From positions 1-64,000 of the IMG/VR virus record IMGVR_UViG_3300015373_000001: a stretch of DNA of 64,000 nt; one strand, written 5' to 3'. Under the pieces are notes generated by a model. That model was not told the DNA's origin and searched no databases. It saw only the letters and a program-made list of their open reading frames with translations. Below, piece by piece: positions 17,080 to 33,631 of this stretch. The stretch is from an uncultured virus (IMG/VR IMGVR_UViG_3300015373_000001) (Duplodnaviria > Heunggongvirae > Uroviricota > Caudoviricetes). The position numbers and the translations under genes are program-made. The first letter of the stretch is position 1; each line of letters starts with the position of its first letter.

Positions 17080-17210
17080 CGTGTCCGAGATGCAGGTATC
17101 GGTTACTTCATCCTTCGAAATGATGACACTTAGGTTCGACTCCTGACTCCGGCCCAGGCCGGAGGCCGATGGCGGCAGTCTGTTACCGGCACCGACTTGA
17201 TTCGGACACG
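17080..17210 (+). ncRNA. yrlA: YrlA-type Y RNA (permuted tRNA mimic)
   Basis: Terminal stem CGTGTCCGA...CTTGATTCGGACACG; inside, T arm TTAGG-TTCGACT-CCTGA, 7-bp CTCCGGC-CCAG-GCCGGAG, D-like GCCG-ATGG-CGGC. Confidence 0.85.
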
Positions 17211-17216
17211 ACCCTC

Positions 17217-17264
17217 ATACGCAGATGGCCCTTCACCTCCACCGGTGAAGGGCCATCTGCGTAT
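17217..17264. repeat. Perfect 21-bp inverted repeat
   Basis: ATACGCAGATGGCCCTTCACC-TCCACC-GGTGAAGGGCCATCTGCGTAT. Confidence 0.9.
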
Positions 17265-17316
17265 CCGCACGCCAAACGGGCGTATGAGCGACACGCCCCA
17301 ACGAAAGGAGTCCCCC

Positions 17317-19002
17317 ATGGCCAAGTTCAACCGCAAGCCCACCGCTACGGACGCCGCCCAGGCCGCCGGAATCCCACTACCCGACCTCTCTACCGCCGAC
17401 GTCGCCGTCCCCCAGGCGGTCGGCCACGAAGGCGCACCCGGCTTCCTGCGCACCCCCGAGGGCGAACTTTTCATGCTCGGCGTCGTCAACATGGTCGGGG
17501 AGGACACCTTCTACGAGAAGGCCGCCGCCCGCGACAACCGGTTCGCTGAGCTGGTCCGCACCGTGGCCGTCACCAACCCCGAATGGCTGATGCAGTTCAT
17601 CGGCTGGCTGCGCAACAGCGCCAACATGCGGAGCGCGTCCGGCGTCGCCGCCGTCGAAATGGTCATGGCCCGCAAGGAAGCGAAGCTGCCCGGCTACGGC
17701 CGCCAGGCGGTCGCGCACGCGTGCGCCCGCGCCGACGAGCCCGGCGAGATCCTGGCCTACTGGCTGAACCGCTACGCCCCACAGGGCGGCAAGGCGGCCA
17801 AGTCCATGCCCGCCGCACTCCGGCGCGGCCTGGCCGACGCCGTGGCGAAGCTGTACAACGAGCGCAACCTGATCAAGTACGACTCCGACAAGGCCACCGT
17901 CCGGTTCGGTGACGTCGTGGAACTGGTACGCCCGACCACGTTCCGGCCGGAGATGCGCGGCACCGCGCAGGGCGAACTGCTGGAGTTCGCGATCGACGTC
18001 CGGCACAACCGCGACAACGGCATCCCCGCGTCGCTGACCGTGCTGCGCAACCGGGCGGAGATTCTGGCCGTTCCGCAGGAGGCACGAGCCCTGTACCTGG
18101 TCTCTCCGGAGCGGTACGGCGAACTGAAGGCGGCCGGGTTCACCTGGGAGCAGTTGGCCGGATGGCTACATGGCCCGATGGACGCCCTGGCATGGCAGAC
18201 CATCCTGCCGTCGATGGGCTACATGGCCCGATTGCGGAACTTGCGCAACTTCGACAAGGCGGGCGTGCCTGACGACGTGGCCGCCGGTGTGGCCGCCTAC
18301 CTGGCAGACCCGGACAAGGTGGCCAAGAGTCGCCAGTTCCCCTACCGGTTCCTGTCCGCGTACCTGGCCACCGACACCGAGCGGTGGCGTGACGCGTTGG
18401 AGAAGGCGCTACAGGCGTCCGTGGCCAACATTCCGGCCCTGCCCGGCCGCACACTCGTCCTGGTGGACACCTCCGGCTCCATGGAGGGGATGGGCCTCTC
18501 CGCCCGGTCGAAGATCAAGCCGGTGATGGCGGGCGCTCTGTTCGGCGTCGCACTGGCCGCCAAGGGCGACGGGGTGGACCTGTACGGGTTCGCCGACGGC
18601 TACCGGCCGTTCCGGCACGACGTCCGTACCGGCGCCTCCGTGCTGCGGCACACGCAGGCGTTCTGCGACAGGATCGGCCAGGACGGGCACGGTACGGCTA
18701 TCGCTGAGTCGGTCCGCAAGACGTACCAGGGTCACGACCGGGTCGTCATCGTCACCGATATGCAGACGTTCGCCTCCGACCACTGGGGCACCGGCGACGT
18801 CTCCTCGCAGGTCCCGGCGGAGATCCCGATGTACGCCTTCAACCTGGGCGGCTACAAGGTGACCGGCATCGACACGTCGCAGCCGAACCGGTACGAACTG
18901 GGCGGCCTGACGGACGCCACGTTCAAGATCTTGGGCGCGTTGGAGAACGGGGTAGACGGTCTGATGGCGATCGACGGGACACCGGCGGCGCTGACGCCGT
19001 AA
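17317..19002 (+). CDS. Ro60/TROVE domain RNA-binding protein with vWA domain
   Basis: EDTFYE, RADEPGE, MGYMARLRNLRNF, KSRQFPYRFLSAY, VLVDTSGSM (MIDAS), VIVTDMQ; AAAGGAG RBS. Confidence 0.93.
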   Translation: MAKFNRKPTATDAAQAAGIPLPDLSTADVAVPQAVGHEGAPGFLRTPEGELFMLGVVNMVGEDTFYEKAAARDNRFAELVRTVAVTNPEWLMQFIGWLRNSANMRSASGVAAVEMVMARKEAKLPGYGRQAVAHACARADEPGEILAYWLNRYAPQGGKAAKSMPAALRRGLADAVAKLYNERNLIKYDSDKATVRFGDVVELVRPTTFRPEMRGTAQGELLEFAIDVRHNRDNGIPASLTVLRNRAEILAVPQEARALYLVSPERYGELKAAGFTWEQLAGWLHGPMDALAWQTILPSMGYMARLRNLRNFDKAGVPDDVAAGVAAYLADPDKVAKSRQFPYRFLSAYLATDTERWRDALEKALQASVANIPALPGRTLVLVDTSGSMEGMGLSARSKIKPVMAGALFGVALAAKGDGVDLYGFADGYRPFRHDVRTGASVLRHTQAFCDRIGQDGHGTAIAESVRKTYQGHDRVVIVTDMQTFASDHWGTGDVSSQVPAEIPMYAFNLGGYKVTGIDTSQPNRYELGGLTDATFKILGALENGVDGLMAIDGTPAALTP

Positions 19003-22800: not shown

Positions 22801-23223
22801 CTAGAGATTCTTGAGCGCCACAGCCAGGGGCTCGCGAGAGTTGGGGATGAGGTCGAGGTCGAGAACCTCGTCCTTGGGGACCCACCTGTAGCCGTCGATG
22901 AAGTCGCCCGGCCCGTGGCGGCTCATGTCCACCTCGTCGCCGCCCGCCTCGCAGAGTCGGGCAACGGCCACCACCGTCGGGCTGTCGGGCTGATTTCCGA
23001 GACGCCATGACCAGACGGCCAGCGGGCGTCCAGGGGACACCTCCAGGCCCACCTCCTCGTACACCTCCCGGATAAGTGCTTCGTCTGGCGTTTCGCCGTT
23101 CTGCATGCGTCCGCCCGGCAGCTCCCATCGACCCGGTTGATGCGGGTCGTCCATGCTCTTTCTGACCAGCAGCAGCTTGCCTTGCCACTGGATTACGGCC
23201 TTCTGCGCGAATTGCACGTACAT
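22801..23223 (-). CDS. NUDIX hydrolase
   Basis: Nudix box GGRMQNGETPDEALIREVYEEVGL. Confidence 0.92.
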   Translation of the reverse strand: MYVQFAQKAVIQWQGKLLLVRKSMDDPHQPGRWELPGGRMQNGETPDEALIREVYEEVGLEVSPGRPLAVWSWRLGNQPDSPTVVAVARLCEAGGDEVDMSRHGPGDFIDGYRWVPKDEVLDLDLIPNSREPLAVALKNL

Positions 23224-26393: not shown

Positions 26394-26700
26394 CCGCCCA
26401 GGGTGGTAGGCAGCGGCCGGTAGCGTCGCGGTCTAACCGCATCATCCTTTCGCTGACTCAACCGTGGAAGAAGACGATCACGCCGGTTGCTGCGGTGGCA
26501 CCTGCTACATTGATGCGCGGAGCGTCGTTGCCCGAAATGCCGAACCCCGGGGAACTTCCCAGGCTTTGCCGGGGCGTACTGAAACATCTGATGGCAGCCT
26601 TATCAAGGGCAAAAGTAGTAAGACCCGCGATTGACTGCTAATTGGACTAATAGGGAAAACTCGTCGTCTGGGCGGGCAACGGCGCTCCGCCTTCTTTTCG

Positions 26701-26774
26701 AAGCCTGAGGGGGGATCGAACCCCTGAACCGACGGCTTTGCAGGCCGCCTCCCGCGCCAGCGAGAACCCAGGCT
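26701..26774 (-). tRNA. tRNA-Cys(GCA)
   Basis: GCGGC-CTGCAAA-GCCGT; U73. Confidence 0.85.
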
Positions 26775-29645: not shown

Positions 29646-30161
29646 TCACGCAACAGTTGCCGACTCTACTCGGAACCATTCGCGAGCCTGTGCGAAATGC
29701 TTGGCCGATACACCATGCTGCCACCCGGTGTGAATCAGCCGGAAGTCGCCGACGCCCGGATGCCCTTTCAGCCACACCTTGTCACGCCTGGTCAGCTCGT
29801 CATCGAACCAGACGAACGGCCGCCCCTGCACGAACTTCGCCACCCTCGGCGTCTTGCGGTGCACCCGGTAGTCATCCCCCGGCTCCACCGCCTCCCGCAT
29901 GTCGATGACCGGCAACTGAGGCAGCCCCAGAAGGGGAGCGATATGCGCGTTTGCGTCGTGGCTCCACATGGTCGCCCACACCAGGTCGGCGCCGACCGTC
30001 TCGGCCAGCTCCAGCAGCACCGGTCCATGTTCGGGGTTGAGCAGGACGTTGTACGTCTCGCCCTGGCAGGTCAGCCTGTGCGCCTGCCACTGCGGACCGG
30101 GACGCCCGAACGGTGCGAGCACACCATCCACGTCCAACAGGATCAACTTGTCCACGTGCAC
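29646..30161 (-). CDS. HAD phosphatase, Swiss-Army-Knife RNA-repair-like (HAD_SAK)
   Basis: LLDVDGVL motif I, LVWATMW motif II, RKT, FVWFDDE motif IV. Confidence 0.8.
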   Translation of the reverse strand: MHVDKLILLDVDGVLAPFGRPGPQWQAHRLTCQGETYNVLLNPEHGPVLLELAETVGADLVWATMWSHDANAHIAPLLGLPQLPVIDMREAVEPGDDYRVHRKTPRVAKFVQGRPFVWFDDELTRRDKVWLKGHPGVGDFRLIHTGWQHGVSAKHFAQAREWFRVESATVA

Positions 30162-32971: not shown

Positions 32972-33040
32972 AGCCGCCCCCCGGAATCGAACCGGGCCTA
33001 CCCCCTTACAAGGGGGGCGTCGCATCCATGGCGCGGCGGC
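32972..33040 (-). tRNA. tRNA-Thr(TGT), atypical D arm
   Basis: CCCCC-CTTGTAA-GGGGG. Confidence 0.75.
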
Positions 33041-33050
33041 AGACGGAAGA

Positions 33051-33139
33051 GGGTGGCGACGGAAAGGATTCTGCAGCCAAACCGCCCAACCAGCCCGGCG
33101 GTCTCCTTCCCGTTCTTCTGTGGCTGTCCACGCCACCCC
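33051..33139 (-). ncRNA. Unidentified ~88-nt structured RNA, copy 1
   Basis: Nested stems; paralog at 33272-33357. Confidence 0.7.
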
Positions 33140-33143
33140 CGTG

Positions 33144-33263
33144 TGGACCCGGCGGGATTCGAACCCGCATCTCCGGCTCTCCCTATGACGCACACCGCCC
33201 CCGGACGGAGGTGGCCACCTCGTATCCGGATCGCGCGGTCACGCCCGATTGAGTTACGGGCCC
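33144..33263 (-). ncRNA. Ala-acceptor tRNA-like RNA with extended internal hairpin
   Basis: GGGCCCG/CGGGTCC (G3.U70), A73, perfect T arm, ~70-nt central region. Confidence 0.7.
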
Positions 33264-33271
33264 TGGCAGAT

Positions 33272-33357
33272 GATGGCGACGAGGGGGACAAAGCCTCCAA
33301 AGCGCCCAACCAGCCCGGCGCGCTCCCTCTCGTCCTTCTGCGGCTGTCCACGCCACC
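33272..33357 (-). ncRNA. Unidentified ~88-nt structured RNA, copy 2
   Basis: Shares GGTGGCGTGGACAGCC-CAGAAG...CGCCGGGCTGGTTGGGCG with copy 1. Confidence 0.7.
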
Positions 33358-33364
33358 ACCTGAG

Positions 33365-33447
33365 CTGTCGGGCGGAGAATCGAACTCCGGCCGCCCCTCG
33401 CGCGAGGAGAACGACCCTGCCACACGTCTCAACGACGCGACCCGACA
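33365..33447 (-). ncRNA. tRNA-like RNA without recognisable anticodon loop
   Basis: TGTCGGG/CCCGACA, T arm CGGAG-TTCGATT-CTCCG, D-like GCGTC/GACGT. Confidence 0.6.
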
Positions 33448-33631
33448 CCGTGACGGTTCCTCCGGATCACCTCGGGAGCAGCCGACAAGCCCGAGAGGGC
33501 GGGAGCGACCCTATTCGGTACCCTTCCGTCGCGAGCCGGTGCGGACTCGAACCGCCGTTGACCGTCACCGGCCGTCCCCACTCGCGACGCGGGGACGGTC
33601 GGCCGCCGGAGTCGAACCGGCATACCCAATG

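What the first reader, a model, noticed from the sequence alone, without database searches (positions are those of the whole stretch)
33051..33357. Duplicated ~88-nt ncRNA flanking a tRNA-like element
Copies at 33051-33139 and 33272-33357 share a terminal stem (GGTGGCG/CGCCAYC), GGACAGCC pairing to the 3' side, a purine-rich bulge (CAGAAGRACGRGARGGAG) and an apical hairpin with invariant CGCC-GGGCTGGTTG-GGCG. The base of that hairpin changes in a compensatory way (C-G vs G-C). Each copy lies just 3' of a tRNA-like RNA. The exposed GGA/GGAG bulge suggests a protein sponge, or these could be further Ro60 ligands.
Basis: partly seen in the sequence, partly recalled or inferred. Interest (0 to 1): 0.75.

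Follow-up and report, generated by a model that had tools for sequence, protein, structure and literature searches.

The report
New pseudoknotted phage RNA family
The two repeats are real copies of a small, tightly folded RNA gene that many unrelated soil phages carry, often among their tRNA genes; it matches no described RNA family and its job is still unknown.

Summary
Copies at 33139-33051 and 33357-33272 are 87% identical. They belong to a conserved structured RNA family of about 87 nt, with 55 aligned members from phage contigs, metagenomes, three cultured actinophages and a few bacterial genomes. It is not in Rfam 15.

A terminal stem P1 stacks on a long arm (P2, hinge, P3). A mini-hairpin loop, GGACAGCC, forms a 5-bp pseudoknot with the invariant P3 loop, GGGCUGGUUG. 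All helices covary: 94.4% of cells are paired and covariation is 0.643 against 0.178 in shuffles. All five pseudoknot pairs show compensatory changes.

The "purine-rich bulge" is really the paired 5' strand of P2, so the GGA-sponge idea fails. The proposed pairing of GGACAGCC to the 3' side is not conserved.

The RNA behaves as a free-standing gene. Its neighbours are diverse, it is sometimes antisense to both of them, and it sometimes abuts tRNAs with 0-1 nt between. The Ro60 link is circumstantial: TROVE occurs in 6 of 43 other element-bearing records, and the element occurs in 6 of 59 TROVE loci.

My best reading is a trans-acting stable RNA, excised with the tRNAs, that binds a conserved host factor. 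Function is unproven.

The parts
33051..33139 (-). Copy A of the RNA, whole element (P1 to P1')
   Evidence: CM R1 hit 33051-33137, 88.2 bits; fold; family alignment
33272..33357 (-). Copy B of the RNA, whole element
   Evidence: CM R1 hit 33271-33357, 80.1 bits; 87% identical to copy A
33132..33138 (-). Copy A, P1 5' strand (GGGUGGC); it pairs with 33051-33057
   Evidence: P1 covaries in the family: 5 of 6 pairs change on both sides
33051..33057 (-). Copy A, P1 3' strand (GCCACCC)
   Evidence: sequence read
33122..33129 (-). Copy A, mini-hairpin loop GGACAGCC. Its last five bases, CAGCC (33126-33122), form the pseudoknot
   Evidence: Pseudoknot pairs are 99% paired and all five show compensatory changes. 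The flanking pair N10-N21 is GC 31 / CG 19
33104..33119 (-). Copy A, junction AGAA, then the P2 5' strand (G, bulged A, ACGGGAAGGA).
   Evidence: P2 has 11 of 12 pairs with double changes. The junction G pairs with the C of GUC (GC 48 / CG 7, none unpaired)
33081..33102 (-). Copy A, P3 hairpin. The loop GGGCUGGUUG is at 33096-33087, and its GGCUG (33095-33091) is the pseudoknot partner
33069..33080 (-). Copy A, variable 3' internal loop (hinge)
   Evidence: 10-19 nt in the family, with no sequence conservation
33058..33068 (-). Copy A, P2 3' strand, ending in GUC
33342..33349 (-). Copy B, GGACAGCC loop
33307..33316 (-). Copy B, P3 loop GGGCUGGUUG
33144..33263 (-). tRNA-like element X2, directly 5' of copy A. 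It is 120 nt, has G3:U70 and a canonical T arm, and carries a 69-nt insertion
   Evidence: Rfam tRNA 31.5 bits; not called by ARAGORN; fold
33364..33446 (-). tRNA-like element X1, directly 5' of copy B. It has an acceptor stem and a T arm; no tool called it
   Evidence: Read; fold z = -2.28; absent
32973..33042 (-). tRNA-Thr(tgt), 8 nt 3' of copy A (context)
   Evidence: ARAGORN
17197..19002 (+). TROVE-domain (Ro60-like) ORF, 601 aa. It is context only: 14 kb away and on the opposite strand
   Evidence: Pfam PF05731, E = 4.4e-15

Best explanation
Both repeats are genes for one member class of a previously unclassified phage RNA of about 87 nt.

Shown (the fold). The 5' and 3' ends pair as P1. 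On the 3' strand P1 runs without a break into a long arm: P2 with one bulged purine, an asymmetric hinge loop of 10-19 nt, then P3. On the 5' strand, between P1 and P2, sit a 2-bp mini-hairpin with the 8-nt loop GGACAGCC and a junction NNAA. The arm folds back so that GGCUG in the invariant 10-nt P3 loop pairs with CAGCC of the mini-hairpin loop. This clusters the invariant unpaired bases (GGA, AA, bulged A/G, G...GUUG) around the junction.

Inferred (the mechanism). The RNA is made as part of polycistronic or tRNA-array transcripts, or from its own promoter. It is cut out as a discrete stable species. Where it abuts tRNAs with 0-1 nt between, this would be done by the enzymes that trim those tRNAs (RNase P and RNase Z-type activities). 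It then acts in trans, presenting its invariant pseudoknotted core to a partner that is conserved across many hosts. A host RNA-metabolism or tRNA-handling factor is more likely than a phage protein. It would work as a decoy, inhibitor or adaptor.

The confidence given (0.45) is for the inferred mechanism. The family and the fold themselves I hold at about 0.95.
For: Family and fold. Pattern scans plus the covariance filter give 55 distinct aligned members. 94.4% of cells are paired. Covariation is 0.643 against 0.178 in shuffles (0 of 500 reach it) and at most 0.115 in slid controls. 27 of 31 pairs change on both sides.

The pseudoknot and three further pairs were not in the model, and they still hold. 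All five pseudoknot pairs have double changes: UAG/CUA, UGG/CUA, ACGGC/GCCGU, CCAGC/GCUGG and CACCU/AGGUG.

G-U pairs are common (for example UG 17 and UG 27 at two pairs), so the structure belongs to this strand only.

Free-standing gene:
- Neighbouring genes are diverse: portal, terminase, holin, DUF669, primase, RLIG1-like and endolysin.
- The element is antisense to both neighbours in L084 and L095, and to a tRNA array in L145.
- A strong terminator lies 14 nt after it in L090.
- Several phages carry two or three diverged copies: the window, L057, L084 and Cece.

Excision with tRNAs. There are 0-1 nt to the flanking tRNAs in L099, L101 and L102, and 5 nt in L170. 10 of 18 tRNA-bearing records have a tRNA within 600 nt.

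Host rather than phage partner. 13 element-bearing phage genomes (932 ORFs) share no blastp family in more than 6 genomes, while the RNA's loops are invariant.
Against: - There is no expression or end-mapping data, so the stable-RNA and processing steps are inference.
- No partner is identified.
- 16 of 34 records have no tRNA at all, and in 7-8 tRNA-bearing records the element is kilobases from any tRNA. tRNA-linked processing therefore cannot be the general route.
- In about 7 contexts the element starts 4-11 nt after a co-oriented stop codon, which also fits a cis-acting 3'-UTR or processing element.
- A compact pseudoknotted core with invariant junction bases is equally what a ribozyme or aptamer would look like.
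- The blastp comparison cannot exclude a remote-homolog phage partner.
Confidence: 0.45

Rival explanations
1. It is a non-canonical Y RNA: a ligand or adaptor of Ro60 (Rsr, TROVE), phage-encoded where present and otherwise the host's. The bulged P1/P2 stem would be the binding site.
For: - The window encodes a TROVE protein.
- In the G008/G013/G022 lineage the RNA lies about 0.25 kb downstream of TROVE on the same strand, among tRNAs and weak YrlA-like hits.
- In G011 it lies 1.3 kb upstream, and in L414 1.2 kb downstream.
- In cultured phage Cece a third copy sits in a cluster of RtcB, tRNAs, the element and a Ro-like protein, 5.5 kb from the Ro gene.
- The element is in 6 of 59 TROVE loci, although pattern scans found it in only tens of 2.9 million viral contigs.
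- The overall shape matches the Y RNA description: 80-130 nt, a stem formed by the 5' and 3' ends, a large internal loop and several paralogs (passage of PMC4201824).
Against: - No GNCGAAN0-1G or CGAA motif: the junction reads AAGAA or AACGA (motif from passages).
- No T arm or D arm.
- No YrlA match over the element.
- 37 of the 43 other element-bearing records have no TROVE, including 0 of 14 near-complete virus records.
- 53 of 59 TROVE loci lack it, including 7 that carry 14-30 tRNAs.
- In this window it is 14 kb from the TROVE gene on the other strand.
Confidence: 0.17
2. It is a cis-acting transcript element: a processing or 'punctuation' site, a 3'-end stabiliser, or an antitermination or riboswitch-like element acting on the flanking genes.
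For: In L086, L088, L092, L094, L097, L098 and L138 it begins 4-11 nt after a co-oriented stop codon. In L094 and L098 the next ORF starts 8-28 nt after it. P1 closes the fold, as in aptamers.
Against: - Flanking genes share no family.
- No expression platform is present: it abuts tRNAs with 0-1 nt between, and the L090 terminator shows no alternative pairing with P1 (read by eye).
- It is antisense to both neighbours in L084 and L095.
- Invariant loop sequences across very different phages argue for a common trans partner.
Confidence: 0.13
3. It is a new small ribozyme (self-cleaving or other) or a ligand-binding RNA whose invariant junction and pseudoknot core is an active site or pocket.
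For: - It has a compact three-way junction locked by a 5-bp loop-loop pseudoknot.
- The invariant bases are concentrated in unpaired positions near the junction: junction A in 55 of 55, loop G10 in 55 of 55, and the A-U pair at the top of P2 in 55 of 55.
- It occurs in phage contexts, where several small ribozyme classes were first found (recalled, not checked here).
Against: It resembles no Rfam ribozyme or riboswitch. No conserved candidate cleavage dinucleotide can be named. Nothing in sequence data can test catalysis.
Confidence: 0.1
4. It is a degenerate tRNA or pseudogene, or a neutral local duplication without function.
For: It lies in a tRNA array, has a 7-bp terminal stem and is about tRNA-sized.
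Against: - ARAGORN and Rfam tRNA do not detect it.
- It has no T arm or anticodon arm.
- 55 members keep a different fold through compensatory changes.
- Most members are far from any tRNA.
Confidence: 0.01
5. It is a CsrA/RsmA-type protein sponge that works through exposed GGA motifs.
For: Copy A and copy B contain GGA and GGAG strings.
Against: These strings lie in the paired P2 5' strand, which covaries freely. They are absent from most members.
Confidence: 0.01

Closest known systems
Bacterial and phage Y RNAs (YrlA RF02553, YrlB, Yrn1/2; Thermus phage Yrl1/2)
   Same: Size of 80-130 nt. A stem formed by the 5' and 3' ends, with a bulge on the 5' strand. A large internal loop. Several paralogs per genome. 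In some phages it is encoded beside TROVE/Ro60 genes among tRNAs, on the same strand.
   Different: It has no GNCGAA/CGAA motif and no tRNA-like T/D domain, and it gives no YrlA model match. It has a loop-loop pseudoknot that Y RNAs are not described to have. Most carriers have no TROVE gene.
tRNA (RF00005) and tRNA-like RNAs
   Same: A terminal 6-9 bp stem stacked on the arm that follows it on the 3' strand. A short 5' arm whose 8-nt loop kisses the loop of the 3' arm, which is the same strand topology as the D-loop/T-loop contact. It is often embedded in tRNA arrays with 0-1 nt spacing.
   Different: It has no anticodon arm, no GTTCRANYC T loop and no encoded CCA. The 3' arm has about 17 bp with a hinge, not 5 bp. 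tRNA finders do not detect it.
Stable RNAs of unknown function encoded in the phage T4 tRNA gene cluster
   Same: They are phage-encoded, non-tRNA stable RNAs that sit inside a tRNA cluster and are presumably released by the tRNA-processing machinery.
   Different: No sequence or structural relation is known. The present family is widespread in phages of high-GC hosts and mostly occurs outside tRNA clusters.
Three-way-junction RNAs locked by loop-loop kissing, such as the purine riboswitch aptamer (recalled; architecture only)
   Same: P1 is closed by the two ends, and two arms have terminal loops that pair with each other, giving a compact core at the junction.
   Different: It has no expression platform, no conserved gene downstream, different conserved bases and no Rfam match.
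Unnamed candidate structured RNAs from IMG/VR (Fremin, Bhatt and Kyrpides 2023, PMC10690425)
   Same: It comes from the same data source and the same kind of object: covarying phage RNA motifs, some of them tRNA-like.
   Different: I could not establish whether this family is among the 10,006 candidates. The searchable supplements gave no match for five sample numbers taken from the contig ids or for the motif, and three supplement files could not be searched.

Membership tests
tRNA (RF00005) | Detected by tRNA models (cloverleaf with D, anticodon and T arms) | tested here: not met
   ARAGORN tRNAs in the window but not these. Rfam tRNA gives no hit over 33051-33139 or 33272-33357 at gathering score or at E up to 10.
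tRNA (RF00005) | T-loop GTTCRANYC closed by a 5-bp stem | tested here: not met
   No such motif lies inside any member; it is found only in neighbouring tRNAs.
Y RNA / YrlA (RF02553) | Match to the Rfam YrlA covariance model | tested here: not met
   No YrlA hit over the element at E up to 10 in the window or at E up to 1 in 20 homolog loci. Weak YrlA hits (29-32 bits, cut-off 69) lie elsewhere in TROVE-bearing loci.
Y RNA / YrlA (RF02553) | GNCGAAN0-1G (CGAA) motif near the 5' end, in the stem or bulge | tested here: not met
   The motif is taken from passages of PMC4201824 and PMC12135203. The corresponding conserved stretch here is NNAA-G(A)AC, read as AAGAAC or AACGAC, and no CGAA is conserved.
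Y RNA / YrlA (RF02553) | Encoded within about 4 kb of the Ro60 gene on the same strand | tested here: not met
   In the window the TROVE ORF is at 17197-19002 (+) and the element at about 33.1-33.4 kb (-). The feature is met in other lineages: G008/G013/G022, G011 and L414.
Y RNA / YrlA (RF02553) | Binds Ro60/Rsr | not testable with these tools
   This needs RNA immunoprecipitation or a gel-shift assay.
CsrA/RsmA-sponge sRNAs | Several conserved GGA motifs in loops or single-stranded stretches | tested here: not met
   The GGA/GGAG strings of the window's copies lie in the paired P2 strand and are not conserved. The only conserved unpaired GGA is the one at the start of the GGACAGCC loop.
Riboswitches (any Rfam class) | Aptamer in a 5' UTR upstream of a recurrent gene family, with an expression platform | tested here: not met
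   No Rfam match. Neighbours are unrelated. The element abuts tRNAs with 0-1 nt between.
Known self-cleaving ribozyme classes in Rfam | Match to a ribozyme covariance model | tested here: not met
   No such hit at E up to 10 in the window region or at E up to 1 in homolog loci.
The new family itself (model R1) | P1, the GGACAGCC-type loop, NNAA, P2 with a bulged purine, an A-U pair at the top of P2, P3 with a 10-nt loop, and a 5-bp pseudoknot | tested here: met
   Copy A scores 88.2 bits and copy B 80.1 bits. Both have the canonical CAGCC/GGCUG pair.

The most novel reading that the evidence does not exclude
The invariant, pseudoknot-locked junction is an active site or a high-affinity pocket. 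On this reading the family is a new class of free-standing phage RNA: either a small ribozyme, or a trans-acting RNA that captures a conserved host RNA-handling factor to protect the phage's translation or RNA pool. The factor could be Ro60, or a tRNA-end or tRNA-elbow-binding defence enzyme. Phages would pass it around as they pass tRNA genes.
Probability: 0.2. Interest if true: 0.9.

Novelty: categorically new. Interest (0 to 1): 0.72.

Why it matters
Phage genomes are full of unannotated gaps. This gap holds an RNA whose sequence and fold are better conserved than any protein shared by its carriers. That implies a strong, general selective role, probably at the interface with host RNA metabolism.

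The family gives a defined, testable object: a covariance model, a pseudoknotted structure, and three cultured carrier phages. One of these, Microbacterium phage Cece, also encodes Ro60 and RtcB.

It bears directly on two open questions: what non-tRNA stable RNAs in phage tRNA clusters do, and whether phage Ro60 proteins use ligands other than canonical Y RNAs. If it proves to be a decoy, an adaptor or a ribozyme, it would add a new RNA class to phage-host conflict biology.

Tried and rejected
- **Rfam 15.** Gathering and E-value scans of the window, the 1-kb region, 20 homolog loci, 4 TROVE loci and the TROVE neighbourhood gave no family over the element. A mir-4654 hit (27 bits against a cut-off of 87) is spurious.
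Rejected.
- **GGA sponge.** Rejected.
- **Local GG/CC hairpin inside GGACAGCC.** RNAalifold proposed it. I replaced it with the pseudoknot because variants break the local pairs but keep the long-range ones. Cece's U...A change is the one case that fits the local pair better.
- **Recurrent neighbour gene.** None found.
- **Shared phage protein.** None occurs in more than 6 of 13 genomes.
- **RtcB co-occurrence.** 2 of 42 records.
- **Bacterial genomes.** 46 pattern matches in genome contigs, of which only 2 are real. In a sample of 151 genomes of one class there was 1 extra divergent member and 2 weak hits lacking the mini-hairpin; that scan used limited candidate scoring.
- **Expression.** No RNA holder is listed for the region.
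- **Promoter and terminator scans.** No promoter-like sites. One convincing terminator after the element in L090, and one upstream of it in L095.
- **Literature.** A search for the sequence motifs found only unrelated primers. Word searches found the Y RNA papers and the IMG/VR csRNA catalogue. In that catalogue, five sample numbers taken from the contig ids and the motif gave no match in the six searchable supplement files. Three files could not be searched, so prior listing there remains open.
- **Earlier notes of this scan.** None.

Full report
**What is there**

The window is the first 64 kb of a 77.8-kb IMG/VR phage record that is about 66% complete. It has 66% G+C. ARAGORN finds 37 tRNA genes, all on the minus strand between 26.7 and 40.1 kb.

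The two repeats lie inside this array and read sensibly only on the minus strand: copy A at 33139-33051 and copy B at 33357-33272. They are 87% identical. They share an exact 18-mer, where 0.41 matches are expected by chance even with up to three mismatches.

Each copy follows, after 4-6 nt, a tRNA-like element that ARAGORN did not call:
- X2 (33263-33144) has G3:U70, a canonical T arm and a 69-nt insertion. It scores 31.5 bits against Rfam tRNA.
- X1 (about 33446-33364) has an acceptor stem and a T arm.

Copy A is followed 8 nt later by tRNA-Thr.

**It is a family, not a local duplication**

Exact-pattern scans of IMG/VR with the conserved core, and then with combinations of motifs, found homologs in many unrelated phage contigs.

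I aligned 25 of them. RNAalifold gave a consensus fold in which 19 of 26 pairs showed compensatory changes. I built a covariance model, R1, from this alignment.

R1 separated true members (50-94 bits) from chance pattern matches:
- Of 46 pattern matches in 596 Gb of bacterial genomes, only 2 were real: a Micromonospora lupini contig and a Gemmatimonadales MAG.
- Of 23 new viral loci, 12 passed.
- A sample of 151 genomes from the class of the Micromonospora genome gave one further divergent member (41.5 bits) and two weak hits.

BLAST against cultured phages followed by R1 found the RNA in three named phages, always in gaps without annotation:
- Curtobacterium phage Nonagon (PQ868950, 7644-7730)
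- Microbacterium phage Cece (OP068343, three copies)
- Micrococcus phage Kurnik (OR756649, 3047-3132)

The final alignment has 55 distinct sequences.

**The fold**

On this alignment 94.4% of 1686 cells form standard pairs. The covariation score is 0.643, against 0.178 in column shuffles (0 of 500 reach it) and at most 0.115 when partners are slid by 1-3 columns. 27 of 31 pairs change on both sides.

The elements, from 5' to 3':
- **P1:** 6-9 bp formed by the two ends.
- **Mini-hairpin:** its closing pair covaries (GC 31, CG 19) and its 8-nt loop is GGACAGCC.
- **Junction:** NNAA, with the last A invariant in 55 of 55.
- **P2:** it begins with a G-C pair to the C of the conserved 3' GUC. This pair is C-G in the seven members that read AAC.AC...GUG, and it is never unpaired. 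A bulged A or G follows, then about 9 covarying pairs, ending in an invariant A-U pair.
- **P3:** 6-7 covarying pairs closing the 10-nt loop GGGCUGGUUG.
- **3' hinge:** an internal loop of 10-19 nt, with no sequence conservation.

On the 3' strand P2 runs directly into P1, so the two can stack.

The alignment was fitted to the model, which favours the model's pairs. However, the closing pair of the mini-hairpin, the G-C pair at the junction and the pseudoknot were added by me afterwards and were not in the model.

Frequent G-U pairs show that the structure belongs to this strand.

**The pseudoknot**

CAGCC in the mini-hairpin loop is complementary to GGCUG in the P3 loop. Both were fixed by my first patterns, so I scanned with a pattern that left three bases free on each side and filtered the matches with R1. 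The variants found were:

| Member | Loop bases / partner |
|---|---|
| L222, L326, L289/L394, L393 (four distinct sequences) | UAG / CUA |
| L226/L239/L308 (one sequence) | UGG / CUA |
| L204/L233 (one sequence) | single A·C mismatch |
| L210, divergent bacterial member | ACGGC / GCCGU |
| Phage Nonagon | CCAGC / GCUGG |
| Phage Kurnik | CACCU / AGGUG |
| Phage Cece | 9-nt loop with one A·G mismatch |

In the count all five pseudoknot pairs have double changes and 99% of cells are paired.

The local GG/CC pairing that RNAalifold proposed is broken in Nonagon, Kurnik and L210, while the long-range pairs are kept. Cece's U...A is the one change that fits the local pair better.

For the P3 loop to reach the mini-hairpin, the arm must fold back at the hinge. 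That would bring the invariant unpaired bases together near the junction (inference).

The proposed pairing of GGACAGCC with the 3' side is not a family feature. The mean best run is 3.3 nt, against 3.2 in shuffled loops.

The "purine-rich bulge" is the junction plus the paired 5' strand of P2. Its GGA/GGAG strings are neither exposed nor conserved. The sponge idea therefore falls.

**Genomic behaviour**

Neighbouring genes are diverse. They include portal, terminase, holin, DUF669, primase/DUF3987, RLIG1-like, metallophosphatase and endolysin.
- In about seven contexts the RNA starts 4-11 nt after a co-oriented stop codon.
- In L084 and L095 it is antisense to both neighbours, and in the Micromonospora locus it is antisense to a 12-tRNA array.
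- In L090 a strong intrinsic terminator follows 14 nt after it.
- Two or three diverged copies per genome occur in the window, L057, L084 and Cece.

Of 34 carrier records searched, 18 have tRNAs. In 10 of those 18 a tRNA lies within 600 nt of the RNA. In the rest it lies 3-50 kb away. 16 records have no tRNA. T-arm motifs within 400 nt are seen only where tRNAs are called.

Where the RNA sits in an array, the spacing can be 0-1 nt on either side (L099, L101, L102). The cuts that mature the flanking tRNAs would then release it exactly at P1 (inference).

Thirteen carrier genomes, with 932 ORFs, share no blastp family in more than six of them. The top families are DNA polymerase/primase, portal, an HTH protein and an SNF2 helicase. 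The RNA's loops, by contrast, are nearly invariant.

**Ro60**

The window encodes a 601-aa TROVE protein at 17197-19002 (+). It also encodes a HAD "Swiss-army-knife RNA repair" domain protein and a NUDIX protein.

TROVE was found in 5 of 28, 0 of 12 and 1 of 3 other carrier records. It was found in 0 of 14 near-complete virus records.

Where TROVE is present, the RNA is often close and on the same strand:
- about 0.25 kb downstream in G008/G013/G022;
- 1.3 kb upstream in G011;
- 5.5 kb upstream in Cece, within a cluster of RtcB, tRNAs, the element and Ro.

In the converse test, 59 TROVE-encoding viral loci with 10 kb on each side held the RNA in 6. Of 20 TROVE loci checked for tRNAs, 7 carry 14-30 tRNAs, and none of those 7 has the RNA. 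RtcB is present in only 2 of 42 carrier records.

[quoted passage not shown] It gives no YrlA match.

The association is more than random but far from obligate. I give the Ro60-ligand reading about 0.17.

**Mechanism and standing**

The fold and the family are shown. The rest is inferred. My preferred reading (about 0.45) is a trans-acting stable RNA that is released from polycistronic or tRNA-array transcripts and presents an invariant pseudoknotted core to a conserved host factor.

The rivals are a non-canonical Y RNA, a cis-acting processing or stability element, and a ribozyme or aptamer.

No expression data were available: no RNA holder is listed for the region.

**Novelty**
- No Rfam 15 family matches.
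- GenBank annotations of three cultured carriers leave the site blank.
- Literature searches by motif and by topic found no description.
- The IMG/VR catalogue of 10,006 unnamed candidate RNAs could be searched only in part, so an anonymous prior listing cannot be excluded.

Noticed in passing
window 17197-19002 (+): A 601-aa TROVE-domain (Ro60-like) ORF. An Rfam E-value scan of 14.5-26.8 kb found no YrlA-like RNA near it, so this phage's canonical Y RNA, if it has one, is unidentified.
   Followed up: partly
window 33144-33263 (-): A 120-nt tRNA-like element (X2). It has G3:U70 (the alanine identity pair), a perfect T arm and D-arm 5' half, and a 69-nt hairpin insertion where the anticodon arm should be. 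It scores 31.5 bits against Rfam tRNA and ARAGORN does not call it.
   Followed up: partly
window ~33364-33446 (-): A second uncalled tRNA-like element (X1). It has a 7-bp acceptor stem, a small D hairpin without GG, and the T arm GGAGUUCGAUUCUCC.
   Followed up: partly
window 33531-33618 (-): ARAGORN calls an 88-nt 'tRNA-Ala(cgc)' here, but Rfam tRNA does not reach its gathering score for it. It may be another aberrant tRNA-like RNA.
   Followed up: no
window 26700-26774 (-): ARAGORN's tRNA-Cys(gca) is scored by Rfam as tRNA-Sec at 47.8 bits, just over the 47-bit cut-off. It has a long D stem.
   Followed up: no
window 29646-30161 (-) and 22801-23223 (-): A HAD_SAK_2 ('Swiss-army-knife RNA repair') domain protein sits inside the tRNA array, and a NUDIX protein lies nearby. 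Together with TROVE they suggest an RNA-repair or RNA-quality-control gene set.
   Followed up: no
OP068343.1 (Microbacterium phage Cece) 99668-109647; locus L462: An annotated cluster in this order: RtcB-like ligase, tRNA-Met x2, tRNA-Cys, the unannotated third copy of the RNA (102443-102528), endolysin, three tRNAs, and a Ro-like RNA-binding protein. It resembles a bacterial rsr-rtcB locus.
   Followed up: partly
L414 12882-12968 (+): This member changes A3 of GGACAGCC to G and G7 of the P3 loop to A, and also U9 to C. It is possibly a tertiary contact that covaries, but this is a single case.
   Followed up: no
L211 1501-1580 (-), L212 552-631 (-): Two bacterial-genome hits (about 29 bits) keep P1, the AACAAC junction, P2 and a GGGCUGG-type loop, but lack the mini-hairpin. 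They are similar to each other and may be a related or degenerate form.
   Followed up: no
L156 565-665 (-): This member has a 14-nt internal duplication that repeats part of P1 and the GGACA motif.
   Followed up: no
L099 1386-1447 (+), L100 6438-6499 (-), L101 6455-6516 (-), L102 5592-5725 (-) and 4486-4541 (-): Weak YrlA-like hits (29-32 bits, cut-off 69) lie among the tRNAs next to TROVE genes. They are probably divergent phage Y RNAs.
   Followed up: no
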